DNA from: Geosiphon pyriformis uo1
Lineage: Eukaryota; Fungi; Glomeromycota
NCBI GenBank assembly: GCA_016748015.1
Contig: JAAOMT010000299.1
Span: forward strand, 719,090-783,089
Direction: 5' to 3'
Length of the DNA stretch: 64,000 nt
The position numbers were made by a program, and so were the translations under genes. Of the stretch, positions 7,979 through 62,029 are shown in pieces. Below the pieces are notes generated by a model. That model searched no databases and was not told where the DNA came from. It saw nothing but the letters and a program-made list of their open reading frames with translations. The first letter of the stretch is position 1; every line of letters starts with the position of its first letter.

Positions 7979-8854
7979 TGTTACTCATAGAATATAGAAA
8001 GTATATTAACATATAAATTAGCCAATTAGAAGTAGCCATAGTAAATGTGGAATTCCAGAATTCCTCTTAAAAGAATTGCAAGATTCCAGGAATTTCAGGA
8101 TTCTTATACAAGGAATCACAGGATTCCAGAATTCCAGAATTTCTTTTAAAGGAATTGCAGAATTCCAGAAATTCCAGGATTCCTGATGAGAAGAATTAAG
8201 GAATTGAGGAATCTTAATTATGTATATATAGCAGTAGTATTAGAAGTATAAAAAGCAGAATCTTTCAGTTAAAGATCTCTCAATTTAGATTTAATCTAAG
8301 CAACCTTCCATTTACAAATATTAATAAATAATTATTTTCTATTTAAATCCACTTTTTACTATTAATACTTCATGTTAATAGTAATTAATACTTAACTACA
8401 CTAGAACAATAGCTCTTGATCACAGCTATTGATGGGTTACTAACTTTTATTGCCTTGGCTTATTTCTTTATTTCTTTATTTTTCTTTTATTTCTTTTATT
8501 TTTTTTGTTATTTTTTCATTGTGTACTAATTAATTAAGAGATTAAAGCGCTAAATTATTGACATCAAGGATTACCTGGTAAAAAACTCCTGCAAGTGGAT
8601 AGAGCATGTAAAAAAATTATGGATTATTTACCAGAGGAGTATCAGCCATTAAGCTGACAAACAAAATTAACAGAATTGCAATTTTGGAAAGCTATGGATA
8701 AACAACTATTAAATCTTTGTCTATTATACAAAGGACTTAAACCAAAACTTTCAGATAACCATACCTTCAGATTATTATCATTGCGAATAGTTTCTGAGCA
8801 CCAAGTTATGAGTTTTGTTATTTAATTTGAGATCCCAAATAATTACCTGAAACA
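7979..8854 (+). repeat. 5' LTR of element A
   Basis: Direct repeat of 16599-17459. Contains a GGAATTCCA-type tandem array (~8049-8215) and TATATATA at ~8224. Confidence 0.96.
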
Positions 8855-8856
8855 TT

Positions 8857-8873
8857 TGGTGCTCCCTGTGAGG
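8857..8873 (+). promoter_or_regulatory. Primer-binding site TGGTGCTCCCTGTGAGG
   Basis: Begins with TGG 2 nt after the LTR. Complementary to a tRNA 3' end CCTCACAGGGAGCACCA; tRNA identity not determined. Confidence 0.88.
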
Positions 8874-11800
8874 TATAATCTTACAGAGAACCAGTACCAA
8901 CAACATCTTTCAAAAGTGGCAGAATCAAAAATCATAAAAGCAAACCATTTAGGATTTACCAAATCCTTGTTTCAACAATACAGCCAACAATTAAGATTAA
9001 ACAATAATTATTTCCCAGCAGAATCAGTCTTTAACTTCTATGTTAACAATAAAATCACAGACTGTTTAGAAGGAACAGTTAACATTAAATCCACAAGAGA
9101 AAATTTCTATACAGAATTGTTCTAACATACCAGCTTACCAAGAAACTACAGTTTTGCATCAATCATCAGGGAAATCAATCAAACTATTAAAAAGTACACT
9201 CAACAACAATTCTTCATTACCTACACAGACAAAGGAAAAGAAAGATTGCAAACATCAGTGGTAACACCAAAACAGATATAACCACCCACTTAGAAGAAAA
9301 TCAGAGTTAAATTACCAACCAATTTATCATACCATTATACATCAGAAAATGTCATTAATATCTTCTTAGTAAACACATCCACATTAAAAGTAACATTAAC
9401 CTTTGGACAATTCCCATTTCAGAGTAAACAAAGAAGATCAGAATTATTAAAACCATATGGCAAATATTTTGAAGAATTTAAATTGCAATTACCAATACCA
9501 TCAGGATTTTGATTACTGCTACCTCAACCAGATTTTGAAACTGTGAGTTCATGAAAAGTAACAAAATCAGAAAAAAAAGAAAGTAAGAATCAGGAATTTA
9601 CTTACCAAAACCTGATCATAGAAAATCCAGAAGTTAAAACTCTGAACATTCAAATCCAGCAAACTTAAAACAATCTAAACCCTGAAACAATTAATCAACA
9701 AAACTTACCTCCAGCAATTGTCATTAATCAGCCACCAGCTGAACTGATTCTTGAATCAATCCAACAGCAGCCACTTCAGCAATCTATTCAACAACCGCTT
9801 TAACAACCCCAGCAGCTGCTTCAATAGCCACAACAACAACTACAGTCACCACCACCTTAACAACCAATTGTACTAATAGCTTATGCCCTAATAGCTAAAC
9901 TCGAGAAATTCACCAGTAAAGAGGATGATGCCCAAGTCTGGCTGAATGATGTGGAAAAAGTTATCACAGCTAATGGATGGGACAATGCCAGAGCCATACA
10001 AGCCATCTCTTATTTTCTCCAGAATACTGCTGACTTATGATATTAAAGCTTAGCCAATAAATCACAGGATTTCAATGCATTTAAGCTTGCATTCTTACAA
10101 TACTTTAGCAATAATAATAGTATTAATTGCCTAGCAAATACCTTCACTACCATCAAACAAGAAGAAAATGAAGCAGTCACCACTTACTTAGGATGCTTTT
10201 ACAGAAATCTGCATCAAATTTAGGCCATACAGGCTGATTATTTTACAGTGCCACAAATCTTAAATCAATTCATTAGAGGACTGTGCAGTAGCATCTTCTA
10301 ATGCATATGCCCAATGCATCCAGTAGATCTTTAAGCTGCAGTTACAAATACCAGAGATTTTGAAGCAGCTGAACTCAAAGCTAATCACATCCAAACTGTA
10401 AATCTAGTAATAAATAGATCATCTGACTTGAATTCTAAATTGAAGCAATTCAGTGATTCAATTAATCAGAAATTAGAGGGATACTTAGCTGACAATTGCA
10501 CAATTTATTAACCATCACAATGACGCAATAATTCAAGAAATGTAAATTGTTTCCAAAATTAGTCATGTTCATTATTATCATCTAATCAGCCATAGCAGCC
10601 AGAGACATGAGTTTGCCACAACTATGGTAAACAAGGTCACATTAGAGTTAACTGCTATTCTTATAGTAATCCATGATCAGAAAATCAATACCAAAACTCT
10701 GATTGCAGAGTTCAAATCCCAAATCAGTACTCAAATCAAGAACAATATTAGTCTACTTACCTGCCAATAATACAGCAAGCAATATATTAACCACCTGTAT
10801 ATCAACTTCCAGTTTATTAACTACAGTCACAAGTAATATATCAACCATTGCAGTCATAAATAATTTATCAGACATCCACAATTCAAATACCACCATCAAA
10901 CCCAGCTCAGATAATATCAGAAAATCCTAGATCAAGAGTCATGCAAAATTGGAGATCGGTAATAGTTGTTTACCAACCAATCTCCAGCTCCTCCATGCAA
11001 CAATTAGGATTATGTTCTCGGAATTCGGGAACTGGACATGCCCAAAACCTGAATTCCCAACACTATTTAAGTTTCCTAGTTACCCCAGAAGATGCCCAAC
11101 CCAATAATCCAGAAACCAACCAACAATCAACACTTACCAGCAATATTCTACCAGCTACTATCACTGAGAACAAATTACTGGACACCATCTTCTCATTTAA
11201 ACTCGAAGAACCATCAACCATGCTATTATTTAGTGGAGCTGCTCTTAAAGAAAAACCTATTAACATCATGTACACTGATGCTAAAGTTGATAGCCACTCC
11301 ATCAAACTGATCCTAGACAGTAGATCAGCTGGCAGTATCATCACAAGACAATTCATGGACCAATTAGGTCATCAAGTTAATTGAACTGCCAGTGTGCAAA
11401 TCATCACTACTGATAGAGTGACTAAAACTCCGATTAGTGAGATTGATGACTTCTCTATAGAAGTCAATAGCATCATCGTGCCAATCAAGATATTAGTTAT
11501 GAAAGTAACTCAATATCAAGCATTTGTTGGTAATAATTGGCTGTTCAAAACCAATACAATGCTTAAATAGAACATGCAGGAGCTCCAACTCAGCCAGAAC
11601 AGTTAACACACATGTGTACCAGCCATGTGTGGCCATTTCAAGACCACCAACATAACAGTACCACTCATCAAGTTCAAGGAAGAAGAGAAAAAACCTACCT
11701 GGGAAGCCTACCAAGTTTTTTGGACCAACAAAAACCATAACGAGTTATCACTAATACTTTCTGGTGACAATAATAAAAAAAGAAAATGAAGAAAAAAACT

Positions 11801-12871
11801 TACTTGGAATACTGACCAAACCTGGAGAACTGACAATGATCCAAACAAATCATCAACATAGGAGTAAAAAGAAACTGACAAGGGAAAAAGAAAAAAGAAA
11901 GAAGAAAAAACAACACCCACTTACACCACCACTTATAATTTCTACATTTACACTACATCACAATAACCTATTTATTGCTGACCAAAGCTTATATGCATTG
12001 ATTGCAGTAAGAAATTGTCATCAATGGATGCATACTGTGGCGATGATGAGGAATACCAGATGACAACTAAGTTCTATTGCCACCCATGCCTTATTGACCA
12101 CTTTGGAAGACCAAAACAAGTTAGAAAATAAGATAATAAGCCATGCTTGACTTGTGAAAAGACTCTTTTCAATGAAGAAATATAGAACAACATTCCTGGA
12201 AGAGGAGAAATATGTAACAAATTGTGTTAGTACATAATTCTTATAAGTGATTGGGTAAGAAAAAAACATCTATAGACATGGCCTAGAGACAAGTAGTCAA
12301 ATATCTGGACAGCTGTCCACACAATGACAACAAAATCTGGTGAATGACACTTGCCAAAATCGAAGGAGCATTACCAGAAGAAATAAAAACAATTAAAAAT
12401 AACCCACCTAAATTCATAGAACTTGACTGAAACCTAGAACCAGTCATAAATTTCCTGGATCTAAAACAATTTCACAAACACTACCAAGAATTAGCACCCA
12501 CAAAAAAAGAGCAAGAGCAACACTTAAAGCAGTTGAACATTCGACTGTGTCAACACTGCCTAATTTCATGTGACTTCCAATATTGTAATGAGTGTGACTA
12601 CATTTACAATTCACCACCATGCATGATCTACACAATCTCAGAGGAAAAAAAATCAATCAACAATTGTGCATTAGAATTAGAATCAATTTTTAATCCCAAT
12701 TTAAACTCTGACAATGACAACAACAAAAACAATGGTTCCAGCTCTGCTCAAAATGGCAAGAAAAATAATAGCAATTCAGACTCCAATTCAAACTTCAAAA
12801 CATACATTGTGCTTTCTGATCTCTCCAAGAAACAGAAACTCAGATAGTATAGTGACAACAATGAAAACATC

Positions 12872-13262
12872 ATGCCAGAATGTGTGCATAATACAGATAC
12901 AGAGTTTAATCTAAGATATCCAAGGAAAGATGTCATCAAATTAGAACCACATTTGCACATATGTATTGATCTCAAAGTAGCATTAGAAATCTCAGCAACC
13001 ACAATGGTTCAACTAGTATTTAGAAATAGCCTAGTGAAAAAAGGAATTAACATCAGAGGAGGAATAATTGACACAGGATATATGAGAAATATTATTATAA
13101 TGCTACAAAATAATTCAGAAAAGATCTATATCATAGAGCCAAATGAAAAAATAGCATAGGCAATATTCCTATTTCTAGTAAAAATAACTTAATTAATATC
13201 AGTAGAAAACAAGAAAAAATTAGAGATTACAGCTAAAGAAATACAGAGATTCGGATTAATGG
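12872..13262 (+). pseudogene. dUTPase domain within pol of element A
   Basis: TEFNLRY (motif 1), RNSLVKKG (2), GGIIDTGYMRNI (3), EKIA* (4), KEIQRFGL (5, decayed RGxxGFGS). Confidence 0.92.
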
Positions 13263-16104
13263 ATAGAATAGATATACCAGTCAATATGGCAGAAGAAGAG
13301 ATTATTGACAAGGAAGAAATTATCTTCATCCATCAACCAATCTCTATTCCACTATATAACCAGTACATGATAGTTATAGAGAGAAAAGTAAAAGATCAAG
13401 TTCAGATTTTTGAGACAGAAGCAATACTTTGTAAATCAAGAGAAATTGGATTAGTCAATTTACACATACCAGCCAAGAACTACAGTCACATCAAAATTTT
13501 CATTTACAACAACATAGAAAATATTATCAAAATACTAGAAAGAACCACTATTGGATACTTAACTACCGAAATTAAAGACCAACTGCCAAACACTATTCCA
13601 GACTTTTCACAACTGTGTGAATATGTAGATATTACATTACAAACAATATACAGACAAGAAGAATATTATTTGCTCCAACCAGAACAATTGAAATAGATGA
13701 ACTTGGGAAATTTAGACCCATTTCAATGAATACAGCTCAAAATGTTACTTAATAACTTCAAAAACATCTTCACCAGTAAAAATGAATTTGGCAGAACTGA
13801 CATAATTCAGCACCAGATCAAGACTAGAAATGCAATGCCAATCAAACAGAGAGCATACAGAATACTACCAGTTAGCCATGAGATCATTTGTCAAGAAATC
13901 AACCAGATGCTTGACAATGGGCTAATTTAGTCATTAATGAGCTCTTGGTTATTACCAGTGGTATTAGTCTGAAAGAAAAATAGAAAGATCTGTTTTTGTG
14001 TGGATTATTGAAAACTGAATGGAATAACTAAAGGTAATAGCTATCTAACTCCAAAGATCCAAGAACTGTTCAATGCTTTTGGAGAAAAGAAATGGTTCTC
14101 GACTTTAGACTTAGATAGTAGTTACTGGCAATTAGCCATGAAGTCAGAAGATAAAGAAAAAACAGCTTTTACAACATAAAAAAAGAATTTTGAATTTGAA
14201 GTTATGCCATTTGGCTTGATGAATGCTCTAGCCACTTTCCAATAACTTATGAAAATTATCTATACTGGACTACTATAGAAATTAGTAGTTATATACTTGG
14301 ATAACACCAATGTGTTTTTAGAAACATTTGATAATTATCTGTATTATCTCCAACAAGTATTTAAAAAACTCAGACAGGCAGAATTGAAACTAAATGCCAA
14401 CAAATACTTCTTTAGAAAAACTGAACTCAAGTTTTTAGAACATATTGTAAACAAAGATGGTATCAAAACGGATCCAGATAAGATTGAGATTGTTAAGAAC
14501 TTTCCAGTACCAAATAATTTCACAGAATTAAGAGCATTCTTGGAATTTGCTGAATACTACTACCACTTTATCAAAGACTTTTCCAAAATAGCTCAATTAC
14601 TATACCAATTCCAAACAAAGAACACCAAATATGAATGGACTGAAACTCAACAAGAAGCTTTTAATACACTAAGAAAAAAGCTTATTCAAGCCCCAGTACT
14701 AATCTATTCAGATTATAGCAAGCCATTCATAATCACAACTGATGCATTGGATTAAGCATTGAGAACAGTACTATTGCAGAGAAAACCAGATGGAAGAGAA
14801 CATCCAGTAGCTTATACCAGCAGAAGCTTAAAGTCCAGCTAAAAAAAACTATTGAACTCCAACACTAAAACACTTAGCTATTTATTGGGCTGTCACCAAA
14901 TGGAAAGAATACTTGAGTCAAAAGTTTAATGTGTACATTAATCACAAAGAATTGACTTCAATCCAGAAGCAAGAATTTGGAGATAATTGTTATGCAAGAT
15001 AGAAAATAGTACTATCATCATATACATTTACAGTACATTATAAAAAGAGAAAAGACAATGGAAATGCCAACAGTTTGTTGTGAATGAGACAAATCTAAAA
15101 ACATTTCAAACCCAAAAATATAACAAAACATGAATATACAAAAATACCAACAACTTTAATATTATATAAATACCCAATTGTTCAAGAAGAAATTATCTCA
15201 AAAGAAACAAAACAACATAAAACAACAATCAAAATATTTTATCAATTACCAAAATATACTTTACCAGAAGAACAAAAGAAATCCAGATCAACTAACCAAA
15301 GTAATTACAGAATCAGAGAAAGAGACAATATTATTCAACATGTACTCAGATCCAACAGCAGGACATTTTTATAAAAAAGCAACCATAGAAAGAACCAGGA
15401 AAAGATACTATTGGTCATCAATGTATCCAGACATCATCTAATATGTTCAAAATTGTAATGCTTATTAAAAAAGAGATGGAACAAAACTCAGCAAACTGTT
15501 AAAACCAATTAAAATAGGACAACCATTCAACTGAATTGGAATTGACTTAGTCAGACTGTTAATAATCACCAGCAGAGACAACAGATAGATCACAGTAGTC
15601 ATAGACTATCTTACTAAATGGCCAGAAACAAAAGCAATTCAAAAAGCAGATGCAGAATTCATTGCCAAATTCATTTATTAAAGATTTGATCTGTTGACAC
15701 AGATGTCCAAAAAAATTATTATTAGATCAAGGAACTCACTTTGTGAATAGAACATTGGCAGAATTAAGTCAAAGATTTGGGATAAAAAAACCATTATTAT
15801 CACCATACCATCCACAAACAAATGGGCTAGTTAAAAAATTTAACAGAACATTGTGTAAAGCCATCACCAAAATCAGCCAAAAAAACCAGAACGAATGGGA
15901 TTTGATTATATTATCAGTATTATTTGCTTATTGGACAATGAAGCAAGACACTACACAAGCAATACCATTCGAGTTAGTATATGAAAGAACAGCAACATTA
16001 CTAGTTGAGATAGAAGTCAAAACATATTCAACAGAACCAATAACAGAAGAGAATTTCCAAAGAACATTGTTAAGAAGAACATATGACTTAATGAAGACAC
16101 AGAA

Positions 16105-16584
16105 AACATTGTGAACAAAATAATCACAAAAGTAAAATTGGCAATAAAAACACAACCAAAAGTCACCCAATATCAAGAGTTGACTATAGATACTTGGAAT
16201 TGGTAGATACAACAATTTCCAAGAAACTTTTGTTACTTTTATTTGGGACAATACTTGAATATTCAAGGCTTGTATACAGATAAAACAAAACAATTATTTG
16301 ACACAACAATACTGCAACAACTGGAACAATTTATGGAGAAAAACAATTTGATCACACAAGCAAGAGCTATTTATTGACTACATACTGGATTTCAAGATTG
16401 ACCAGAAATCTTACTTCATCCAGAAATAAACTTCATTACCATTAACTAAATAGAAAAAATAACCAATGCTTAATTTGGAGAATTACAGAACAAGATAGCA
16501 CAAATAATTCTTAAAAAAGAAGTTCAAAAAATACTCAAAGATGAAGAATTAGAATTAGAAAATCTCAACAGAGCTCAATATTAA
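16105..16584 (+). pseudogene. ORF3 of element A (N-terminus deleted)
   Basis: Frame from 16141: ..CYFYLGQ..QARAIY*LH..ILLHPEINFITIN*IEKITNA*FGEL..NLNRAQY*. Aligns by eye with ORF 50944-51609. Confidence 0.8.
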
Positions 16585-16598
16585 AGAGAAGGAAATAA

Positions 16599-17459
16599 TG
16601 TTACTCATATAATATAGGAAGTATATTAACATATAAATTAGCCAATCAGAAGTAACTGTAGTAAATGTGGAATTCCAGAATTCCTCTTAAAAGAATTGTA
16701 GGATTCCAGGAATTTTAGGATTCTCATACAAGGAATCGCAGGATTCCAGAATTCCAAAATTCCTCTCAAAAGAATTGCAGGATTCCAAGAATTCCAGAAT
16801 TCCTGATGGGAAGAATTGAAGAATTGAGGAATCTCAATTATGTATATATAGCAGTAGTGCTAGAAGTAGAAAAGGCAGAATCTTTCAGTTAAAAACCTCT
16901 CAGTTTAGATTTGATCTAAGCAATCTTCCATTTACAAATATCAATAAATAATTATTCTCTATCTCAAATTCACTCTTCACTATCAATACTTCATGTTGAT
17001 AGTAATTGATACTTAACCACACTGGAACAATAGCTCTTGATCATGGCTATTGACAAGTTACTAACTTTTATTGTCTTGGCTTATTTCTTTATTTCTTTAT
17101 TTTTCTTTTATTTCTTCTATCTTCTTTGTTATTTCTTTATTGTGTACTAATTAATTAAGGGATTAAAGCACTAAATTATTGACATCAAGAATTGCCTGGT
17201 AAAAGACCTCTGTGAGTGGATAGAGCATGTAAAGAAATTATGGATTACTTATCAGAAGAGTACCAGTCATTAAGCTAAAGAACAAAATTAACAGAATTGT
17301 GATTCTGAGAAGCTATGGATAAACAACTATTAAATCTCTGTCCATTATACAAAGGACTCAAACCAAAACCTTTAGATTATCATCATTGCAAATAGCTTCT
17401 GAGCACCAAGTTATGAGTTTTGTTATTTGATTTGAGATCCCAAATAATCACCTATAACA
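16599..17459 (+). repeat. 3' LTR of element A
   Basis: Direct repeat of 7979-8854, preceded by the purine tract AAAGAGAAGGAAATAA. Confidence 0.96.
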
Positions 17460-24026: not shown

Positions 24027-27000
24027 TATTATGGTTAAAACTCATATTTTTTATTAGTTATTACATGTATTAGCCACTGATATTATATATTTAGCCATTT
24101 TATTTTAGATAATAATTATTGACCACTTTTAATAGCTATATAAGTGATAAATCTTTTAGTTATAAAATGGCATGTCAGAATACAAGACATGTCAGAAATC
24201 AAGAAAATAAAATAAATAAAATAACAACTTTTATTTTATCCAAACATCTTAGGATAAAAAATTACTTGTTGGTTATTTTTTACCTTTTTCTGAAAACATG
24301 TAATTGTAGTATTTAAAAATTATTAAATAAAACTTGACTGAAAAATACATCTAATACTTAATATTGAATTCTAAGAGCACCAATATAAAGCATAAAATTA
24401 TATCAGATGTGATTATTTGTTGACAGTATGGACTATCTCTCTACCTTTAGATTCTCTAGTTATCTTTTGAAAAGAATAGCAACTCAAATATTTTATAAGA
24501 CTGATCTCACACATTGAATCCATACTTATTCAATTCGCTCTTTAAAGTTGAATTCTTTTTAATTCTTTTCATTATTCTACAATCTTGTTTTCCTTTGTTA
24601 TCTGTTAGCTTGTTATTTCAATTTGTAACATAAAAGTGGTGCTTCCTATAAGATTGTCAAAATCCACTTTGTTTTTTATTGTATAGATGATTATTTATAT
24701 CTGCTACAACAATTAAAAGAATACTTTGAAGTATACAACAAAAACAATCTAAATTTTATTAAACTCAATCTTTTGCCCTTCTGCTTGATTTGCTTTCCCA
24801 TTAAAGAACAATCTAATAAACAATTCCAAGACTTTTGGAATTGGTTCCTGAATGAGCATTCAGCTGAAACCTATACAATCTATACAACTTATTACTTTAA
24901 CCAAGCTTATTTTGAAGACAACTTTGAAAAAAGAAACAACAATATCAATCAGCTTTTATATTTCACAACTTTTAAACAACAGCCCCCTGATTTTGAATAT
25001 CTAAATTACCAAATTCACATTTGGATTGCTGTATATCAGCTAACTAAAACACCCTTTGAAACAGAAGAAAAAAGCTATCAAACTGCTGCTGTTTTTGATC
25101 TCTTCTTAAGTAAATCAAAAAATTTTACACAAACAGCTACTCTTAAACCAATGACTAATAATTCTATACAACAAAACATTCTAATCACTCTCCAAGACAT
25201 ACAAATTGCTTTAAGATGAAGAAACAATACCCCATTACCATTATTCAAAAGTAATGCACAAAATCTAATTAAATAGTTAAATAACTTTAAAAAAGCTGCC
25301 ACAGCCAATCAATATAATAATGAATACAAATTCCAAATCATTGGTGGCTATCTTTAAGGCTCTTTTGCTACTTAGTTTTTACAAAAAACCAATGCTAATG
25401 CTCAGCAAAGAATCATTAGATGGACACCAGCAAATGCTGGAGAAAACAATACTTCTTTTATTATTCAGTTTGAAATAAAATTTAGAACTCCTATCTTGAT
25501 CTCAAAATAGTGTATGAAATTAGAAAAGAAAACCCAAAGTTCTGGTGAAGTTGTAACTGAATACATCAAAGCAATCAGAAAGTTAATCAAGCAGATAGAC
25601 TCTGGAAGAAACTAAACAGAAGAGCAGAAAATTTACTCCTTTACAAAAGGATTAAGAACTGATCTCTTATATGCTTTTTGGTCTCTTTTGGTCCTAAAAA
25701 ACAATTCCATAATGGATATGACTATTGAATTAGCTCAACAAATTGAAGACAATCAAAAGATGCACTTGGGATCCACACTTCTAGTTTTTGCTTCTGCTCC
25801 TGTTATGGTTTCTGTTCCTCAAATGGCTGCCACTTTTTTTACTGCTCAAACTCCAAATCCCAATGAACAATTGATAGATAAACTCACAACCAATTTTGCT
25901 TGGCTATTAAAACCATTAGCTCAAGTAGTCAGAGATAATCAACAACTCCAAAAACTCAGATATAAATCTTGTTTTAATCAGTTCCAACAACTCTTTTATC
26001 AAAGACAACAAAATCATGGTCTACTTGTGTGTTATTACTGTGGATTAACTGGACATTTCTCCAAAGATTACAACAATTCTCCTCTGCTTCCTCCAGCTTT
26101 CAGAAATAATGACAATTAAAACAACAGAATCATTAATAACAATGTCTCTAATTAAAAACCTAATCATGCCAACATCAATTTTTTTGGAGAAGATCCCTTA
26201 GTTAAAGCCACTATTTATCAGCCTTTAAACTGGTAGACACACCTCTAAAGAATGAGAGTGCAAGCCAACCAGAAGAAAACTCTTTTTACACTTTTAATTT
26301 AACTAATAATAACCATAACATAAATGGATTAGCAATCAACACTTCTGAATTAACAAGAAAGAAAAAGAAAGCCAAGATTAATTTTGTTCTAAATCCAAAC
26401 AAAGCATCCATATTAACTGCTAATAACAATAAGGCACCAAAGACTAAAGTTTTTAAAAATTCTTCAAAGTTGAAACTTTCAGAAATAGTACAAAAATTTG
26501 GTTCTTATTCTATTGTTAAAGATTTTATGAAAATCCCAGCACACATTACATTTGGTCAACTAATAACTCATCTACAGTTCAGAAAAGATCTTCACAAATC
26601 ATTGATTCTAAAAAAAAAGATACCAAAAACCAACAAGTGCTCTTGCCAAGCTGGACTTGTTGACAATAATAATATTACCTCTCTAATTTGTAAAACCCAA
26701 GTGGCTAGTTATTTTATTAACTTGATCCTAGATAGTAAATCATCTGTAAGTGTAATTACCAAACACTTTCTGGAAGCCATTGGTAGAAAAATAAATGAAT
26801 CTTCAACCAGACCAATGACCAATATACATGGTGACAAAAAGAAAGAACTTGGTATAGCCAAAGCTGTTTTTGTCTGTATTAATATCATTAGCATTAAGAC
26901 TGACATAAAAGTATTCAAAGCAAAAAAATACACTATTATTGTTGGCAATGAATGGCTCAAAAAGACAAAAGCTTTGCTTGATTATAAACTTTGTAAACTA

Positions 27001-30000
27001 ATTATCAAATATAGTAAAAAATCTATTGTAATTAAATATTACCATTGGACAATCTCTCCAGTACTCAAGCAAAACCAAAAAGAAAAACAATCAGATAAAT
27101 CAGATAATGATAAGAGTGATGAAAAAAAAGATCAAAAAGAACAAAAAAAACTGCTGAACTCACTTATATTATCTTTACCAGCAATGGCAAGTCATTGAAC
27201 AATATTAAAGCTGACAAAAAAGGAATCATGATAAATGGCAAGCTAATTTGCTGGCCCTATTATGATATCCTCAGAAGAATCTTTAATAGAAAACCTGACA
27301 AGAAAGCCAAATACAGTTATTGGTGACATGGTTTTTGTGCCAAGTGCTGGTGTAATAAACTCTTGTATTCTCTTAGTAATAAATAAAAATCTTGTCTAAT
27401 CTACTACAAAGATTAGGAACTTATTAGCCTAATACCAAGAGAAGAATTAAGAGAAGTATAAAAGTTTTTTGAAAGTAAACCACCTAAAATTCAATCATTT
27501 ACAGTAGAACAAAGAGAACTCTCTCCTGAAAAAAAAAAAATAAACATTGAAAATCTGTTGGCTAGAAATAACCCAGTTATTTTAAAAGAAGATAATACTC
27601 CTGGACAAACTTATGTGATACAACATATTATTACCACCAGAGAAACTCACCCCATCTATTTGAAGTCTTATCAATCCAATTGGCACAATAATAAGTTTAT
27701 CAAAAAAGAGATAATTTGAATGAAAAATCTTGGATTTATACAAAAAACCAAGAGTGAATGGGCTTTCTCAGTTGTAATGATATCCAAAAAAGGTGGAACT
27801 CTATGTTTCTGTATTAACTACTACCAATTAAATACCATCATTATAAGAGATCTGTATCTACTTTCCAAAATGAATCCAATGTTAGATAAATTCAATGGTA
27901 CTGCTTTCTTCTCAACCATTGACTTAACTGTTGAATTCTAGCAAGTAGAGATGGATCTAAAAAATAGAAAGAAAACTGCTTTCATTATCAAGTATGATAC
28001 CTATAAATTCACAGTCATGTCTTTTGGTCTTATTAATGCTTCTTTTATCTTTTAATGTCTAATGAACAAAGTATTTAAATCAGTAAAAAAAAAATTTTGT
28101 TCTGGTTTATTTGGATAACATAATGATATACTCAAAAATCTGGGATAAACACCTTGAATACTTACAAAAGGTTTTTAATCTCCTTAGAAATGCTGGTCTT
28201 AAAATAAATTCAATTAAATCTTTCTTTGGATGACAATCCACCCAATTTTTTGGTCATCTTATTACAAAAGATAGAATCTTCTGTGACTTAGCCAAAGTTA
28301 AAAAAGTTTAGAACATTAGACAACCAATAAATGTTCTTAAACTACACTCTTTCTTTGGTTTGGCCTCTTACTATTGCAAATTTATCAAGAATTTCTTCAA
28401 AATTATCTTTCTTCTCAATCAACTACTTAGGAAAAATGTCAATTAATACTGGCACATACACCAGCAAAAAGCTTTTGAAATTCTGAAGGAAAAACTTGTT
28501 ACTAAACTAATCCTTAAACAACCTGATCTGAACTAATTTTTTATTTTGTATACTAATACATCTGGCTATAAACTTAGTACTGTTTTCTCACAGAAAGATG
28601 AAAATAGCAGAGAACATACTATAGTATATGCCAATAAAACTCTCACATCAGCAGAAAAAAACTATTCAGTTACTAAACAAGAATACTTAGCAGTAATATG
28701 AGCTATTAATTACTGAAACCAATATCTTTTTGGTATAAAATTCTTAATGATAACAGATTATCAAGCCTTGGTTTGGCTGTGTAACAAAAAGAAGCTGAAA
28801 TATAAACAAATAACTTGCTGGATACTTCCTTTGGATGAATTTGACTATGACATTCAACACCACAAAAGAGCAAATCATCAAAATATCAATGCTTTTTCTA
28901 GACTTACTATTTAGTGATAGTACAATTTTTCAATCAAACCAACTTAATTATTAGTAACTCTCTTATAAACAAACACGATAATGGACTTGGACAACTACTT
29001 TGCCTTAATGGAATTTTTGGGTAAAGAATAATACCCATTAGAATACACTTAACAGCAAAGAGAACATTTGTGCAAACAATTAAATTTCTATTTAATTTAC
29101 CAAAACCAATTATATAAAAGAAACAGAAAAGATCTTGACTGCTCCCAGAAAGTTATCAGATTTAAAGAAAAAAAAATTGTAATATATAATATGTACACTG
29201 ATTTATTAACTAAACACTTTGGAAAAACAAAAACAATTCAGAAAACCTTAGCTTATTATTATTGGTCTACTTTGGAAAAAAACATTGCTAAGTACATCAA
29301 AACCTGTAATATTTGCCAAAAAAGAGGAAAACCCAATTGCAAGAAAGATATCTATCCAATTTCTGTTAGTTAACCATTTAACAGAATTGGTATAGATGTT
29401 ATTAGACTCTTAACAATAACTTTTAATGACAATAGATACATTATTACAGCTACCAACTATCTTACAAAGTAAGTAGAAACAAGAGCCATTCCAGACCAAA
29501 CAGCAGTTTTAATAGCTAATTTTATTTATGAAGATATTATCTGCTGTTATGACTGCTCCAAAGAACTTTTATCTAATAGAGAAAAAGCTTTTCTCAGTAC
29601 ACTGGTTAAGAAACTTTGTAAAAAAATAGGAATATGTCATAAACTTTTCTTTTTTTACCACTCTCAAACAAATGGTCTAATGAAACGTTTTAATAGAACA
29701 TTATATAAAACCTTAGCCAAAACCAGTAAAAAAACAAATTTATAGAACAAAGTACTGCTTTTAGCTTTGTTTGCTTATAGAACTGTAAATTATGACATAA
29801 CAAGTTATGAACCTTTTTATCTGCTTTATGAACATATGGCAATACTATCAATAAAAACTAACATTAAAACAATATCTTTTAAAGAAATCACAATAGAAAA
29901 TTATAAAGACATTTTGCAAAAAAAACTTGATATTATTCTTAACTCTTTAGTAGAAGCATAAATAATTGCCTTTGAAAAAATAAAACAGTTCCAAGAAAAG

Positions 30001-35989: not shown

Positions 35990-38900
35990 TGTTATAAGTG
36001 ATTATTTAGAATATTAGAACAAATAACAAATCTGTAACTTAATGCTCAATAGTTGGAAATATTAGTAATTTTCGAAAGTTTTGGAGTTTAAAGATTTTGG
36101 TTAAGTCTTTTATATAATAAACAAAAATTTAATTGATGGTTTTTTCTGTGAATTTCTTTTTTTAGCATAGTAACCAGTTTATTTTGACAGTCATATCTTT
36201 CTGATAAGCTATTCTTAAATTTTTACTCTTGTTTTCAGGTTTTTTATCAAGTTATTCTTAATGTTAAATACTTAGTACTTGATTTCTTTTATCAATTAGT
36301 AAACAACAAAAAAATAAAACAAAAAAAAATAAATAAAAATAAAAAATTTAAAATAAAAAATTAGTATTCTGTTAATAGTTATAATTAAGAGCTATTAATT
36401 TAGTATGATTAAGTATTAAAGTTTATTAACATAAATTGTTAATAGTAAAAAAGTAATTAATATTCTTAATCAAATAATAATAACATAAATTTAGATAATA
36501 ATTAAGTATTTTTATTGATATTAATATGATTTTATTTCAAGTTATAAAAAACTATCTTTTAAAGAGAGAGGTATAAAATAAGTTGTTATTTTTAACTTGG
36601 ATTGAATTGTATCCTTTTTTTCTGTTTCTAATACTTTTACTATAAATATATAATTTGATTTTTTGAAATTTTTTATTTTTTTTAAAAAGAATTCTGTAAT
36701 TCTGTAATTCTGCAATTTTGGGATTTTACAATTTCTTAAGAAAAATTCTGGAATTCTGAAATTTTGGAATTTCACAATTTCTTGAAAAGAATTCTGGAAT
36801 TTCTTTTTACTATACCTATTTCTAATTGGCTATTTTATCTACTTATTATAATTCCTAATTTCTATAAGTAATATTATTCCTTTCTTTTAATATTGAGCTC
36901 TATTGAGATTTCTCAAATCTTCTAAATCTATATTAGTATGTAAATAAGGTTCTAATTTGATAATAGTTTTTTTAAGATATTTAAAATTAAACCTTGTATT
37001 AGTATTATGTATTTGTTCTAATATAATATTTTCATTATTTTTGCTAAACTATTTGATTTTCTGCTTCTTGAAAAAATCTGGGAGCATAATATATTGTTCA
37101 GAATTATAATCAAAGTTTGAATTATTATTATTATTGTTGCTATAGTAAATAGTATTAAAACTATTGTCATTGTTATTATTAAAGTCTGAATTACAATTGA
37201 ATTTTGATTTTGATTCTGAAGTACAGCTGCTAATTGGTTCTTTCTCTTTGGGAATCAAATAAATTATGCTTGATAGTGAATTGTAAATAAGATTACAATT
37301 GTTACAATATTCAAAGTTATTAAAAATTAGGTAATGTTTACAAAATATAGTATTTAATTGTTTTAAATATTGCTTTTGTTCTTTTTAAGTAAATACTAGA
37401 TCTTGGTAATGTTCATAGAATTGTTTAAGATTGTTCAAAATGTCAATAAATACATTTGAATTGGAAATAAAAACAGTTTTGACAAATTTTGATAAGTTAT
37501 TCTTGATTGTAAGTATTTTACTAAGTGAAATATTTTTGATTTTAGCACTTGTTATTTTCCAGATCTTGTCTTCATTGTGTAAATAACTGTTCAAATATGA
37601 AAGTGCTCAGTTTTACACAGTATTAAAAGACATTTTTCAGCTTACACAGTCATTAATAAGAATTGTGTATTAACACAATATATTGTATATTCTTTCTTAA
37701 CCAGAAATGTTATTTTATATTCCTTTATTAAGTAGTGTTTCTCCACAAGCAAGACATAATTTTTTGTTTCACTTTTCTTGTTATTTTGGATATTCAAAAT
37801 GTTTTCAGTAGTATAACTTGCAATAATAGTGGATACATATCCAGTAATCTTCTTTGGGTGAGATCCAAGCTCTTATAAAAGAAAGCTTTTTCTTGTAATC
37901 TTTGTATTTAAATAGGATATATGATGGTTTTTTTTTTGTGTTCACTAAGTAGGATACATGTTAACTATTGGATAATTTTTAAATAGCAATAGTGGCTTGT
38001 GGTTTATCTTTTTTTTTTTCTTTTCTCTTGTTATTTCAAGAAAGTATTGGTGGTAATTTGTTGTGCTTATTTTCAGTTCACAAAACTTGGTAAGCTTTTC
38101 AAATAGATTTTTTTTTTCTTTTTCAAATTTAATTAGTGGTAATTGGATGGTAGCATTTGTTTTAAAGTGGCCACAGATGGTTGGTACTCAAGTATGCTGA
38201 TTATTTTGACTAAGCTGAAACTTTTGGATAGTTTAATCAAGCACAGTATTGGTCTTAAACAGCCAATTATTACTAACAAAAGCTTAATACTATGTGGCTT
38301 TCATAATAAAAACTTTGATAAATGTAATAATACTGTTAATTTCAAAAGGAAAGTTGTTAATTTTGCCAATAGAAGTTTTAATGATTTTATTAGCAGTAAT
38401 GATTTTAACACTGACAGCATGATCAACTTGGTATTCTAATTGGTTTATGAGTTGTTATGTAATAATATTGTCTGCTAAACTATTATTAAGAACTAACTTA
38501 ATAAATTGGCCATTAATTTTAACATTTGTATATATGATTGTAATAAATTTTGTGTTAAAAACAGTTCTATTAAACAGAGATGTTGTTACTGGTTCTTTCA
38601 GTTTAAAAAAAATATTGTAATGAGTAATTTGTCTTCTATAATGGTGGTAGGTAAAATATTGTTGGTGAATATTTTCTGGATTTCCAAGTTATTAAATAAG
38701 TTGTTTGTTGAAATAGCTAAAAGACTTAAATAATTCTGAAAATTTGAGTTTTAGATATACTCACTTTTCAAATTTCTTGGACATGATTCTGATAATTGGT
38801 TTGATGAACTGAAAATTAGTTGGTATATAATCATTGTTAATCTTTAGTTCTATTATATATGGATGATTCTTGGTCTTTGGCTTCTATTTAATACTGACAT

Positions 38901-45400: not shown

Positions 45401-47463
45401 GTTAGCACCAGAATTATCACAGCTAATAGAGTAATAAAAACTCTTATGGGCAAAATTGACAACTTTCTTTTTAAAGTCAAAAGCATTACTATGCCAATCA
45501 AAGTATTAGTAATAGAAGCCATACAATACCAAGCTTTTATTGGTAATAACTGGCTGTCCAAAATTAATATTATACTTGATGAGAACACCCAAGAGCTACA
45601 GTTCAGTCAAAATGATTAGCAAACTTGGATATCTGCTATCTATGGCTACTTCAAAACAAACACCACCACCTAATTACTACTAATCAAATTCAAAAAAAAA
45701 ACCTACTTGAAAGCCTATTAAGTTTTGTAGATTGAAAATAAACACAACAAACCACCACTAATACTCTCTTAAAACAACAAAAAAAAAGAAAAAAAAGAGA
45801 ATAAATCATAAGCCAACATCTTTACAAAAGAAACAAATAACAGTTGGCATATTTCATACTTGTCAAAACCAAAAAAAAAACTATCCTACTACTAAGATCT
45901 AGTACCTACTTAAGAAAAACAAAAGCAGCATTTAGAACAATTAAATACTAAACTTTGTAAACATTGTCTAATTTTCTGTGACTTAGAATATTATGTAAGT
46001 ATAATCTTATTTACAATCTGCCACTATGTATAATTTATTTAATTTCCAAAAAAAAAAACCAATTAGCAATTGTGTTTCAAAATTAGAATTGAAATTTAAT
46101 TCCAATTTAGACTCTAACAATGATAACAACAATAGTTCCAACTCCATTCACAATGGCAATAACAATAATAACAATTCAAACTCTAATAAAAACTTCAAAC
46201 AATATATTGTGCTTTCAGATCTTTTATAAAAACAGGAACTTAAATGGTTTAATAATAATAATAAGGATATTATGTCAAAATGTATGCATAATACTGATAC
46301 AGAGTTTAATCTCAGATATTTAGAAAAAACTGCCATTAGATTGAAACATTACTTATATACCAGTATAAAATTAAAAAATTTAGGAGATTTTAACAAAGCT
46401 CAATATTAAAAAAAGAAAATAATATTACTTATAAAAATTTAGGAATTCTTAATAAGTACATAAAATAGCCAATTAGAAATAAATATAATAAAAAAAAAAT
46501 TTCAAAATTTCTTTTAAAAAATTGCAGAATTTCAGGAATTTCAGAATTTTTTTTGAGAAATTACAAGATTCCAAAAATTTCAGGATTTTTGGTTAAAAAA
46601 ATTAAAAGAATATAAAAAATCTTGTATAATATAAAATATATATAGTAAGAGTATTAAAAACAGAAAAAATAATTCTCAGAGAATTCAAATAGAGTTTATA
46701 TTAATTTAAAACAATATTTCTTCCTTTAAAAAGTAGTTTTTTACAATTTAAAGTAAAATTATTTCCATATTAATAAAATTATCTATTATTATCAAATTCA
46801 TATTATTATTACTTAATTAAGAATATTAATTATTTTTATTACTATCAACACTCCATGTTAATAAAATTTGATACTTAATTACACTAGAACAATAGCTTTT
46901 AATCATGGCTATTGACAGAATATTAATTTTTTATTTTTTTATTTTTTTTATTTTTTTTTGTTTTGTTTTCTTTGTTATTTATTAATTGATTAAAAGAATT
47001 AAGTGCTAAGTTATTGACATCAAAAAGGACTGGTAAAAGACTTGTAAAATAAGATTAAAAACTTGAAAATTAAAAATAGCTTACCAAAAAAAACTGGCCA
47101 TCAAGCTGAAAAAAAAATTCATAGAATAAACTTCTGAGAGAATACTAAAACAACTATTGAATCTCTGTTTATTATACAAAAGACTTAATCAAAACCTTTA
47201 GATCATAAAAATCTTTAAAAATAACTAACTGTACAAGCTATTAAGTACCAAGTTACAGGTTTGTTATTTGTACTAACATTCCAAATAATCACTTGTAACA
47301 ATGCTCAATATGAGTTGCTATTATTTGTTTTTTTTCTTTCAACATACTAAGAAAAATATAAGTTCTTTATTGAAATGTCTTTTGAAAGTTATTTTTGTTA
47401 ATTGGTTGCACTAAGTATGTTTTTACTGAAAAATTAATTAGTAATATTGTTGTTCTTCCATAG
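42436..47463 (-). mobile_element. Old G-like fragment (ORF3 plus integrase C-terminus); hosts element F and abuts element H
   Basis: 42436-43535 and 47301-47463 are collinear with ~51100-52350. Confidence 0.8.
43536..47300 (+). mobile_element. Element F: complete 3.77-kb non-autonomous A-like derivative
   Basis: LTRs 43536-44407 and 46423-47300, TSD ATGT/ATGC, decayed PBS at 44410, PPT before 46423. The ~2-kb interior holds only the gag C-terminus, protease, part of the Cys-rich region and the dUTPase start. Confidence 0.92.
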
Positions 47464-48996: not shown

Positions 48997-50943
48997 TTTT
49001 TTTTGTTGTTTTTATTGCACATGTTGGTTTCTTATATACTGTTATAGTAGATCAATTCGACATGTTTGATGATAATTGGTTCTAAATCTCATAAAATCTT
49101 ATCTGGTTTGACTAGTATTCTTTGTACTTCCAGTTATGAAATATTATTGATAAATAATAATACTATATTGTGGTATGGTTTCAGTTGATTTTTATGTGTT
49201 GTTTTAGCTAAAATTTTGTTGTTCTATCTTAGTTTATAAGCTTTATTTTCTAGAATTTTTTTAATGTGAAATAGTCTGTTCTATTTGTGATCGAATTTTT
49301 CACTCCATTGTTTTTCTATTTTGGTATGATGTAAAAATACTTTGTCTCCAATTCTAAATTCAACTGGTTTATTTGGTAATTGGTTATCATGTTATTTTTT
49401 TTGTTTTTTTTGTGACTTTTGAATATTATTAGCTGCTTTTTATCTTTTGTTTTTCAACATTTTTATTAGTTTGTATATTCTTCCTAGCAATGTTTTTTGA
49501 AAGTTGGCTTTTGTTATTGGTTCTGTTGAATATGTGTTAATGTCTATCTTAACTAATAATGTTGCTGTTTTATCATAAAAAAGTTTAAATAATGTTGCTT
49601 GTGTGGTATCTTGTTTCATTGTTTGATAAGCAAATAATACTAATAGTATAAACAAATATCATTTGTTCTGGTTTTCCTGGCTGATTTTTGCTATTGTTTA
49701 CACAATATTCTGTTAAACCTTTTCATTAAGTTATTTGTTTGTGAATGATATAATGATAATAATGGTCTTTTGATTTCAAATCTTTGACTTAATTCTCTTA
49801 ATATTCTGTTCACAAAATAGGTTCTTTGATTTAATAATAATTTTTTTAGATATCTATATTGATAAATTAAATTTTGGTGAACAATTTGGCTATGAATTTT
49901 GTATTTGCTCTTTGTATTGCTTTTGCTTCTGGCTATTTTGTAAGATAATTCATAGCTACTGCTATGTAATAGTTGTCTTTACTGGTTATTGTTAATGGTG
50001 TTACCGAAGGTTTTTGGTCTCTTTTCTTAATGGTTGTTGATGCCTGTTTGCTGTAAATTCACGTTTTCTGGATGTGGTTGAACCTCCAGTACTGAATTTA
50101 TCTTCAAATTATTTCCTATAATTTGAACTGCTGGACTTATAAGTGGAATGGCCAATTCCATGCCAGTTACTTTATGTAGTTACATTGTAGTAAATGTCAA
50201 CTCTTTCCCAGGAATTGCTTGTCTAGAAACTCATTAAAAATGTGTAGTTACTTTGCTGTAAAAGTCAACTCTTTTACAGGAATCTCATCTGTAGGCTACT
50301 CTAATGATTATAATAAGAAAATAAAATAAAAGTAAAAGAAAAGTAAAAGAAATTGAATTCTGTCAAGTAAAACGTTTTCTATCTAGACCTGGAGTCACTA
50401 ACGATTTACTGAAATTGGTAGCTAATCAATTTTAAAACATTAGTTGGGTTTTGGGAATTTTCAGATGTAATAATTAAGAAGTTGATTTTTGAATTATTTA
50501 ATATTTATTTCGTTTTTGTGTATTGAATTGATTCAATTTAAGATATCTAAAAGTAAGATATATTTTTTCGAAGAGAGAAGCTCTTTTTTTATACAACTTG
50601 TTATAGTACTAGTCTGTGAACTTGAATTATTTTTTTTACTATGATTTTGATGAACTAAAGGTACATTTCGGCAAACTTACAAGTTATTTCTACGAACTAT
50701 TGAATATTTCAGTGAACTATCAATTATTTCAGCAAATTTACACAAATTTTGGCAAACTTTTGAATATTAACTGGTTCAGGGTATTGTGTAATTTGATTGT
50801 TCTAATTTCTATAGTATAAATTATGTTATTAATTGATTAATAATATTTGATAATTTGATTGAATAATAAGTGATGATTTGAAATGATAATATATGCTAAT
50901 TAATGATAGAAATTATAAGGGTAATTTCATGTTAATTAATATC

Positions 50944-51651
50944 TCAAATTTCGGTTGGTAACATAACCTTCTCCTCAAGACTGAGCTCCATCAAAGTCCA
51001 AGTACTGTCTGTATGTTCCAGATAGTAATCCAAAATTACTAAAGAAATTTGGTCTGAAAATTGTTGAAATTTCAGTTCTGTGAGTTTTCCAATGTATTGA
51101 ATCTTCAGTGGTTGTAAAATTGGGTTTTGTAGGACATTTTCACAGGTGTGAAATAGGTCATAAAGTCTAAGAGCTGCTCTAAGTTTGTAGCAACTGTTTG
51201 TTAGTCCAGCCATTGTCTTAAATTTGTTGTAAAGTTGTTTTTGAATGGCTTCTTTTGTGAAGTTGGCTGTTGTGAGTTCTAGTTTTTGTTCATACAATGT
51301 TTTTTCAATGTAAAAATATCTATAAATTAGAAGGTATTCATTGTTTTCTTTATTAAGACACTGTTGAAGTTTTTGTTGAATTGTGATATTTGGTGAAATG
51401 TCAATAGGTAAGAGCAACAAATTTTCTCTCAAGGCAAGCTTCAAGAATTCTGGTAGGTGAATTCCAGAATAACTTTTAGTGTTTTTTTTATAAGGGTAAT
51501 AATTTCGTGATTTTGGAGATAAGGTTGTGGCTGTTTCTGTTTGAGTATAATTAATATGTTTTTCTGTAATAGTAATAGATAATTCAAGTATTGTTTTTAA
51601 AGCTAACATTAGTTTCTGAAATAATTGTTAAATGTTTTGTGGAATAGTCAT
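50944..51651 (-). pseudogene. ORF3 of element G; 221 aa still open, probable original ATG at 51651
   Basis: MTIPQNI*QLFQKL is in frame with ORF 50944-51609, separated by a single TAA (likely from CAA). The ORF crosses the PPT and ends 20 nt inside the 3' LTR. Confidence 0.85.
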
Positions 51652-54600: not shown

Positions 54601-55053
54601 GCTCTAGTTGTTCCATGTTGATTCGAGATAATTTTTCAACAACAATGTGATAGTTTTCAGAACTGGGTTTTGGGTTTATTCTGGGGAGAAAATGTCCAAT
54701 AATTTCCAAAAAGTTAAAAACTGTTTGGGGTAATTCTTGTTGAAAGATTTTGTTATGAATAATTTCAATTTCCAAATTATTTAGTAAAATGATGGGGTGA
54801 TGATTGGGGTTGTAAAAAGTAACTCGGACTTTCTTCATTCTTTTTGGAAGATAAATGTTTGGGATTGAGATGCCATTTTTTGTGCAAATTTGTTTACTGG
54901 CTTCGAAGATTTGTTGAGTAGTGGTGAGTTTTCTACAAATATAAATTTTGTGATGTTCTCCAAAGAGTAAAATGGTTATTGGTTGTGGAAGTCTGAGAAT
55001 CTGGTGAGATTCATTCTGTGTATTAAGGCTATATTAACTGGAACTATGAATTG

Positions 55054-55446
55054 TCCAGTTGAACCAAAATCTTGGGTTCCTCTCTCACTTTTCCCTAATT
55101 GTTCTCTTTGATTGACTAATTGCAAATCTGAAATGTTGATTAAGGGTAAATAAATAGCTTGGGCAATTTTTTCAGCATGTTCAATCTTGAATGATTTGTC
55201 AGTTTCATTTTGAAGCATTACTGTAATATCTCCAGTGTATCTAGCATCAATAATTCCTCCTCTTATGTTGATTCCTTTGCTTGCTAGAAAAGATTGGGAG
55301 GCAATTTGCACCATCATTCCTGATGGGATTTCAAGGGCAATTTTTAGATTAATTCTTGTAAGGGATTTTGGTTGAAGAATGAGGGTATCTTTTTCTGGAT
55401 ATCTTAGATCATATCCAGTGTTAATTTCGTGAGCTTTCTCAGGCTT
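55054..55446 (-). pseudogene. dUTPase domain within pol of element G
   Basis: KPEKAHEINTGYDLRY..ASQSFLASKGINIRGGIIDARYTGDI..EKIAQAI..SERGTQDFGSTG: all five trimeric dUTPase motifs in order. Confidence 0.95.
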
Positions 55447-58400: not shown

Positions 58401-58802
58401 TTTGTTTCCTTTTTCTTTTTCCTTCTTCTATTTCCAATTCAAAACTAAGAGAAAATTTCTGTTCTACTGGATAATTTTCTTTACAATACTGAATGATATT
58501 GAAGTTGAGTTCTTGGAAGTATGTTTCAAGTGTTTGACTGTTAAAATTCTGAGTGTTTAAACAAGAGTGATGTACTAAGCTTTCATATAAGTTGTGTCTA
58601 ACTTCTGAAATGTTGTAGTCTCCAAGAAGATAATTGTTGATGCAATTTTTAATGTACTGGTAAAGTGTTTTCTTGAATGTTTCAATTTTGTCTGGAATGT
58701 TAAATCTCTGCTTGCAGTGGGTGTAGATTGACTGATAATACTCTAGAGTCCTTAAATCTGTTTGAGTCGCCACTTTTGAAGTTGTTGTCACTGTGTTATT
58801 TT

Positions 58803-58817
58803 CGTGGAAGAGCACTA
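58803..58817 (-). promoter_or_regulatory. Primer-binding site of element G, T(A)GTGCTCTTCCACG
   Basis: Starts 2 nt inside the 5' LTR boundary; TGG has decayed to TAG. Confidence 0.7.
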
Positions 58818-61800: not shown

Positions 61801-62029
61801 TTTGATGTGCTTATAATTCTTGGCTGATATATAAAGATTGATAATTCTAATCTTTCCTAATTCATAAATAGTTGGTTCTGCTTCAAAAATCTGGGGCTAA
61901 TTTCTTACTTTTCTTTCTATTATTAACATATGCTGATCATATAGTAAAATAGAAACTAATTGATGAGTAGAGATAATTTCTCTCTTATCAATTGTTTCTT
62001 TCTCTGCCATATTAATTAGTACATCTATT

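What the first reader, a model, noticed from the sequence alone, without database searches (positions are those of the whole stretch)
12872..13262. Ty3/Gypsy families carrying a complete dUTPase between PR and RT
Seen: five-motif dUTPase at the same position in A, G (55054-55446) and H (62030-62425), with stubs in E and F. Established: dUTPase limits uracil incorporation and occurs in betaretroviruses (before PR), non-primate lentiviruses (between RH and IN) and ERV-L (after IN); it is uncommon in LTR retrotransposons. Inference: an independent, old capture shared by two divergent families, suggesting reverse transcription under high dUTP or host uracil-excision pressure.
Basis: partly seen in the sequence, partly recalled or inferred. 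Interest (0 to 1): 0.75.

Follow-up and report, generated by a model that had tools for sequence, protein, structure and literature searches.

The report
Fungal retrotransposons with doubled dUTPase fold
Decayed jumping genes of the fungus Geosiphon pyriformis carry a dUTP-destroying enzyme domain between protease and reverse transcriptase, a layout already published for other fungi and animals, but here it is followed by a second domain predicted to have the same fold without the catalytic motifs, which likely serves a structural rather than enzymatic role.

Summary
Three Ty3/Gypsy copies (A, G, H) carry a full-length trimeric-type dUTPase just before RT. Every window copy is damaged (A: two stops; H: frameshift; G: motif 2, 3 and 5 substitutions). 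The host is Geosiphon pyriformis. Across 360 annotated sister proteins the commonest residue at each motif position is canonical. Transversions between A and G pile up at third codon positions (53 of 85), so the enzyme was selected while the elements moved. PR-dUTPase-RT is already published for Postia, rotifer and planarian Gypsy elements, so the headline is not new. 'Independent capture' and 'uracil pressure' are unsupported, and a dUTPase-less Gypsy family sits in the same window. One is a ~210-aa Cys-rich insert before the dUTPase, with no fold match. The other is a ~100-aa motif-less domain after it, whose predicted structure matches only dUTPase-superfamily folds (top 22 VIA rows; model pLDDT 60; sequence similarity not significant). 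An intact unnamed relative has the same layout. The scan noted such a second fold before on other DNA (e1-9971350); my paper searches did not find it.

The parts
7979..17459 (+). Element A, full-length Ty3/Gypsy copy. LTRs 7979-8854 and 16599-17459 (88% alike), 4-bp target duplication with one transition
11259..11588 (+). A: aspartic protease (decayed), in frame with gag
   Evidence: frame from the translations printed
11982..12607 (+). A: Cys-rich insert (several CxxC pairs plus a helical part), with a frameshift in this copy
12869..13264 (+). A: trimeric-type dUTPase, full length, two internal stops, motifs 1, 2 and 5 damaged, motif 3 Asp kept (the finding)
13289..13582 (+). A: second domain with predicted dUTPase fold and none of the five motifs, in frame with dUTPase and RT
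13766..14870 (+). A: reverse transcriptase and RNase H (decayed)
15202..16083 (+). A: integrase (zinc-binding and core matches), behind a stop after RNase H
49999..59784 (-). Element G, full-length copy of a sister family. LTRs 93% alike, 4-bp target duplication, inserted into element H
56455..56784 (-). G: aspartic protease, in one frame with gag, insert and dUTPase
55576..56205 (-). G: Cys-rich insert, no fold match
55051..55473 (-). G: dUTPase, open frame, substitutions in motifs 2, 3 and 5
54737..55024 (-). G: second, motif-less dUTPase-fold domain (frameshift between it and the dUTPase in this copy)
62020..62447 (-). H: dUTPase (A family), frameshift and stop; H's protease lies outside the window
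61714..62007 (-). H: second, motif-less dUTPase-fold domain
36923..37027 (-). E: 35-codon dUTPase stub joined to the element's 3' end by an internal deletion
46269..46376 (+). F: dUTPase stub with the same deletion junction as E
26674..28599 (+). Comparison element C: PR to RT-RNase H of a more distant Gypsy family with neither dUTPase nor second domain

Best explanation
These are dead copies of a Ty3/Gypsy retrotransposon lineage of Geosiphon pyriformis whose polyprotein holds protease, a Cys-rich insert, a five-motif dUTPase, a second motif-less domain predicted to have the dUTPase fold, and RT-RNase H; the first domain likely worked as a homotrimeric dUTPase that kept uracil out of the cDNA, and the second was likely kept as a non-catalytic structural module. 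Shown: domain order, canonical majority residues, purifying selection, loss of motifs in the second domain, and decay of the window copies by C-to-T and G-to-A changes. Each junction from gag to RT is in frame in at least one copy. Predicted: the fold of the second domain. Inferred from the family's known chemistry: the polyprotein is packaged in the virus-like particle and cut by the protease, and three dUTPase chains hydrolyse dUTP to dUMP and pyrophosphate beside RT. Inferred and untested: the second domain is an older or long-diverged dUTPase copy turned scaffold or spacer ahead of RT.
For: Motif residues are majority-canonical in 120 A-type and 240 G-type annotated proteins: motif 3 Asp 97 of 120 and 192 of 239, Tyr 120 of 120 and 239 of 239, motif 4 Gln 120 of 120 and 223 of 225. 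79% and 78% of non-majority residues are reachable by C>T/G>A alone, against about 8% for a random replacement. Third-position transversions: dUTPase A vs G 53 of 85 (p 4e-8), RT-RH 128 of 226, second domain A vs H 13 of 21 (p 0.007), LTR controls 7 of 35 and 13 of 42. Second-domain model: all 35 Foldseek PDB rows shown are dUTPases (best E 5.3e-4, TM about 0.5). VIA ranks 1-22 are all dUTPase, dCTP deaminase or herpesviral dUTPase-related folds (best Z 9.4, rmsd 2.9, 92 aligned, EIAV dUTPase), and from rank 24 down Z is 4.9 or less. Named rows in the viral library agree. The alignment columns used for the model hold no residues of the first dUTPase. Intact unnamed relative P0378 has PR, insert, dUTPase, second domain and RT in one open frame.
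Against: No activity was measured. Only 5 of 117 A-type and 11 of 161 G-type proteins that cover all 13 key positions keep all of them, and these are automatic gene models. Motif 2 reads RSS rather than the common RSG (motif wording recalled; FIV has KSS). The second-domain model is modest (mean pLDDT 60.5, pTM 0.44) and comes from a decayed copy. Its sequence similarity to the first dUTPase is not significant (HHalign probability 1.5%; 4 of 60 column shuffles score as high). The selection signal for dUTPase within the A family alone is not significant (A vs H 12 of 24, p 0.07). Relatives L001 and P0494 have PR joined directly to a dUTPase with no recognisable second domain, so the second domain is not needed in all dUTPase-bearing Gypsy elements.
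Confidence: 0.7

Rival explanations
1. The two dUTPase-fold domains work together in one chain, as a herpesvirus-like pseudo-multimer or a mixed trimer, so the second domain is part of the enzyme.
For: The domains are adjacent and in frame in A, H and P0378. Two-domain herpesviral dUTPases and related proteins are among the top fold matches. PMC4531489 describes trimer-mimicking monomers (passage seen).
Against: The first domain keeps all five motifs under selection, whereas herpesviral enzymes rearrange the motifs across the chain (PMC4531489). The second domain keeps none. Relatives with the dUTPase alone exist.
Confidence: 0.15
2. One reading: an independent capture from a host, bacterial or viral donor, driven by high dUTP or uracil-excision pressure in this fungus.
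For: The domain is old and selected. No close cellular or phage donor turned up: best phage matches about 40% identity; solved dUTPases of viruses, eukaryotes and bacteria score in a narrow band, 80 bits at best. PMC2864245 says fungal elements seem to have acquired dUTPase independently from different sources.
Against: A 53%-identical dUTPase sits in a Gypsy lineage with 25%-identical PR, which fits descent or module exchange among retroelements rather than a local capture. A dUTPase-less Gypsy family is repeated in the same window. Nothing here measures nucleotide pools.
Confidence: 0.2
3. The second domain is not dUTPase-derived; it is a generic beta-sandwich spacer and the match is an artefact of a mediocre model.
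For: pLDDT 60.5; no Pfam or NCBIfam match; no significant profile match to the dUTPase.
Against: Three structure searches rank the dUTPase superfamily first, with a clear gap to unrelated beta-sandwiches. The weak profile alignment falls in the motif 3-4 register and pairs the only invariant residue (Asn) with the conserved Asn after motif 3.
Confidence: 0.12

Closest known systems
PosPlaTy3-5 of Postia placenta (PMC2864245; section read), with the Phanerochaete elements and Tuber Tmt1 (seen only as citations there)
   Same: Fungal Ty3/Gypsy element with dUTPase between PR and RT
   Different: Described among that survey's basidiomycete families. No Cys-rich insert or second dUTPase-fold domain is mentioned in the text I saw (its .doc supplements were not seen). 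The host here is a Glomeromycotina fungus; no chromodomain match was seen in G's post-integrase ORFs.
Juno, Vesta and TelKA elements of bdelloid rotifers (PMC5408684, passages) and planarian Burro (PMC6431247, passage)
   Same: dUTPase between PR and RT in Gypsy-like elements; Juno has an extra zinc knuckle beside it
   Different: Animal hosts. The zinc knuckle follows the dUTPase in Juno, whereas the Cys-rich domain precedes it here. No tandem fold is reported in the passages seen.
Trimeric dUTPases (Pfam PF00692, TIGR00576), including lentiviral FIV and EIAV enzymes
   Same: Five motifs in canonical order; motif 3 closely resembles FIV's
   Different: Window copies are pseudogenes. Position in the polyprotein differs from betaretroviruses and lentiviruses. 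G scores 90.5 bits against the TIGR00576 cut-off of 102.55; intact relative L001 passes at 113.
Herpesviral dUTPase-related proteins (HCMV UL82/pp71, gammaherpesvirus ORF10) and baculovirus TLP20
   Same: dUTPase fold without the catalytic motifs; among the top fold matches of the second domain (ranks 4, 6, 23)
   Different: They are stand-alone proteins of DNA viruses (their non-enzymatic roles are recalled, not read here). Here the motif-less fold is fused between an enzymatic dUTPase and RT in a retrotransposon polyprotein.

Membership tests
Ty3/Gypsy LTR retrotransposon (Metaviridae) | Paired LTRs with TG...CA ends and a target-site duplication | tested here: met
   A and G have LTR pairs at 88% and 93% and 4-bp duplications; some end bases are changed by transitions
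Ty3/Gypsy LTR retrotransposon (Metaviridae) | Order gag, PR, RT, RNase H, integrase | tested here: met
   Pfam matches in that order in A and G; gag matches in sister proteins
Ty3/Gypsy LTR retrotransposon (Metaviridae) | Placement in a named clade by RT phylogeny | not tested
   No reference RT sequences were in hand
Trimeric dUTPase (first domain) | Five conserved motifs in order, with motif 3 Asp and Tyr and a Gly-rich motif 5 | tested here: met
   Met at family level by majority residues and in intact relatives. Motif positions taken from alignments and from recall.
Trimeric dUTPase (first domain) | Intact coding sequence in the window copies | tested here: not met
   A has two stops, H a frameshift and a stop, G motif substitutions
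Trimeric dUTPase (first domain) | dUTP hydrolysis and trimer formation | not testable with these tools
   Needs an assay
Trimeric dUTPase (second domain) | dUTPase beta-fold | tested here: met
   Predicted model only (pLDDT 60.5); Foldseek and VIA rank the superfamily first
Trimeric dUTPase (second domain) | Five catalytic motifs | tested here: not met
   None recognisable in 50 aligned rows; no Pfam or NCBIfam match. It is not filed as an enzyme.
Herpesvirus-type monomeric dUTPase | Motifs split and reordered across two fused domains | tested here: not met
   All five motifs lie in the first domain

The most novel reading that the evidence does not exclude
The motif-less domain is the relic of an earlier dUTPase capture that a Gypsy lineage turned into a structural part of Pol, and the working dUTPase was re-acquired later from another Gypsy lineage. 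If similar unannotated PR-RT spacers of other Gypsy elements have this fold, dUTPase would be an ancient, recycled component of Ty3/Gypsy Pol rather than a rare, sporadic capture.
Probability: 0.25. Interest if true: 0.7.

Novelty: new variant of a known kind. Interest (0 to 1): 0.4.

Why it matters
The headline, a dUTPase between PR and RT, only extends a known layout to a Glomeromycotina host. The added anatomy matters more. A retrotransposon Pol that kept both an enzyme and a dead copy of its fold under selection would be a retroelement parallel to herpesviral dUTPase-related proteins, and it names a concrete unannotated Pol segment to test across Gypsy elements. An intact natural relative (P0378) makes the enzyme, the second domain and the unknown Cys-rich domain testable without reconstructing anything. 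It also explains why hundreds of 'dUTPase' gene models in this genome are transposon debris.

Tried and rejected
The Geosiphon genome paper (Malar et al. 2021, Curr Biol) is not held; it may already mention these domains. The protein Atlas gave no answer, so the wider spread of the second domain is untested. Viral contigs gave no relative in two scans (0 of 76 and 0 of 128 candidate stretches), and a scan with the second-domain alignment could not be run. Genome contigs gave 1 of 120 candidates, a 33%-identical archaeal match, not a donor. The profile search of representatives was filled mostly by decayed Geosiphon-type proteins (best 150 of 12,485; 7 of 10 looked up are named G. pyriformis), so it did not show the nearest non-element dUTPases. 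A recent tandem duplication as origin of the second domain was rejected: no significant sequence similarity. Complex prediction for three copies of the second domain returned no verdict. The Cys-rich insert model (pLDDT 67, pTM 0.39) had no Foldseek match at E<=0.001 and best VIA Z 6.1 on helices only; this does not show a new fold. No RNA holder was listed for the region. A sequencing-error origin of the breaks was rejected: differences between paired LTRs are almost all transitions.

Full report
Setting. The window is AT-rich and made of nested LTR retrotransposons. All 360 proteins listed by three homologue searches (the best 120 each of 266, 313 and 473 hits) are named Geosiphon pyriformis hypothetical proteins, and one (P0121) is 99% identical to the G copy over 80% of the query. 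The host is therefore G. pyriformis, whose genome is 41.2% LTR elements according to PMC11952901 (passage seen).

Observation. Pfam dUTPase matches lie in A and G, and a home-built profile finds H and the two stubs. A and G are full-length elements with paired LTRs and 4-bp target duplications, and their domain order is PR, dUTPase, RT, RNase H, integrase. H's protease is outside the window. No window copy is intact. A has two stops and has lost the motif 1 Asp and motif 2 Ser; H has a frameshift, a stop and Asn at the motif 3 Asp; G is open but altered in motifs 2, 3 and 5.

Was it an enzyme? In 120 A-type and 240 G-type annotated proteins the commonest residue at each motif position is the expected one, for example motif 3 Asp in 97 of 120 and 192 of 239. 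Motif positions come from the alignments and from recall. Departures are mostly of the C-to-T or G-to-A kind (79% and 78%, against about 8% for a random replacement), matching the LTR pairs, where 85 of 89 and 63 of 64 differences are transitions. Only 5 of 117 and 11 of 161 proteins covering all 13 key positions keep them all. Because decay is nearly all transitions, I used transversions to read older selection. Between A and G, 53 of 85 dUTPase transversions are at third positions (p 4e-8), as in RT-RNase H (128 of 226); LTR controls give 7 of 35 and 13 of 42. A against H alone is not significant for the dUTPase (12 of 24, p 0.07).

One acquisition, source unknown. A-G identity is 50% for PR, 46% for dUTPase and 54% for RT. 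Trees of PR (20 rows) and dUTPase (17 rows) both recover the G group and the metagenome group, and both set P0496 and P0378 apart; the A family is well supported only in the dUTPase tree, and many inner branches are open. Further Geosiphon families share the layout. Metagenome loci L001-L003 (3 of 133 candidate stretches) are nearly intact Gypsy elements with PR joined directly to a dUTPase. L001's dUTPase is 53% identical to P0378's while its PR is 25%, which suggests, but does not show, module exchange between Gypsy lineages. No donor emerged: phage dUTPases reach about 40%, and solved enzymes from all domains score similarly. Element C in the window has PR and RT but neither dUTPase domain, and its family is repeated in the window. 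That weakens the idea that this host forces Gypsy elements to carry the enzyme.

Between dUTPase and RT lies a ~100-aa segment conserved across families (A-type vs G-type HHalign 95%, 25% identity) and under selection (13 of 21 third-position transversions, p 0.007). An AlphaFold2 model from 50 rows (pLDDT 60.5, pTM 0.44), whose columns hold no residues of the first dUTPase, matched dUTPases in all 35 PDB rows shown by Foldseek (best E 5.3e-4). VIA ranks 1-22 were all dUTPase-superfamily folds (best Z 9.4, rmsd 2.9 over 92 residues), with Z 4.9 or less from rank 24, and named rows of the viral library agree. It has none of the five motifs, no Pfam or NCBIfam match, and no significant sequence similarity to the first domain (4 of 60 shuffles score as high). 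It is thus not a recent duplicate, and the fold claim rests on prediction. Before the dUTPase lies a ~210-aa Cys-rich domain without a fold match. An unnamed intact protein, P0378, carries PR, this insert, the dUTPase, the second domain and RT in one frame.

Mechanism. Gag-PR is in frame in A and G, PR-insert-dUTPase in G and P0378, dUTPase-second domain in A, H and P0378, and second domain-RT in A, G and P0378 (gag frames from the translations printed). The active element therefore probably made one polyprotein from gag to RNase H, with integrase behind a stop. By the known chemistry of the family (PMC4531489, passages), the dUTPase would be packaged, released by the protease, form trimers and remove dUTP beside RT. 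This is inference; nothing was assayed. Since the first domain keeps all five motifs and the second none, I favour a homotrimeric enzyme plus a non-catalytic module over a herpesvirus-like two-domain enzyme.

Comparison with what is known. PMC2864245 (passages and section 5 read; its .doc supplements on element structure and dUTPase phylogeny not seen) reports dUTPase between PR and RT in PosPlaTy3-5 and cites Phanerochaete and Tuber elements, which I saw only as citations. PMC5408684 (passages) reports the same in rotifer Juno, Vesta and TelKA, PMC6431247 (passage) in planarian Burro, and PMC11011659 (passages) a dUTPase in the metavirus ancestor of PNMA genes. Searches for dUTPase with Geosiphon (0 papers), 'dUTPase fold' with retrotransposon (0), six phrases for tandem or inactive dUTPase (6 papers, 5 listed, none by title on retrotransposons) and 'dUTPase-like' with retrotransposon (2) did not show a tandem motif-less domain. 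The library lacks most subscription papers, including the Geosiphon genome paper. The scan itself noted such a second fold in another genome (e1-9971350); I saw that note after stating the idea and running the tests.

Verdict. A real feature and a known layout, in dead copies. The variant with a Cys-rich insert and a second, motif-less dUTPase fold is the part worth a specialist's attention. Interest 0.4; new variant of a known kind.

Noticed in passing
window 7979-8854 vs 16599-17459; 50001-50961 vs 58822-59782: Differences between paired LTRs are almost all transitions (85 of 89 and 63 of 64). CpG sites are hit most (14 of 17; 16 of 32), but CpA, CpC and CpT sites are also hit at 14-36%. [quoted passage not shown]
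   Followed up: partly
window 36923-37027 (E) and 46269-46376 (F): E and F share one internal deletion that joins the dUTPase stub to the element's 3' end, at a short stretch (about 10 bases) present at both places in A. This suggests a non-autonomous subfamily made by template switching that went on to spread.
   Followed up: partly
window 55576-56205 (-), 11982-12607 (+), 62675-63304 (-), 37283-37900 (-): A ~210-aa Cys-rich domain between PR and dUTPase, 40% identical in intact relative P0378, with conserved CxxC pairs and no Pfam or fold match; probably binds zinc.
   Followed up: partly
window about 15070-15135 (A), 53200-53250 (G), 28910-28980 (C): A stop follows RNase H in G and C, and in A with a further stop just before it, and a new ATG opens the integrase frame.
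   Followed up: partly
window 50944-51627 (-) and about 16100-16590 (+): An extra reading frame without Pfam match lies between integrase and the 3' LTR in G (226 aa open), and a decayed one appears in A (translation printed). Similar accessory genes were noted in other genomes by the scan.
   Followed up: no
L001-L003, P0492, P0494: Nearly intact metagenomic Gypsy elements of unknown host have PR joined directly to a related dUTPase (47-52% to the A family), followed in L001, L003 and P0494 by an acidic linker and a small Cys/His motif.
   Followed up: partly
window 4552-64000: The window is a nest of LTR elements: G sits in H's integrase region, A sits in a dUTPase-less element, and several A-type LTRs stand alone or bound deletion derivatives.
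   Followed up: partly
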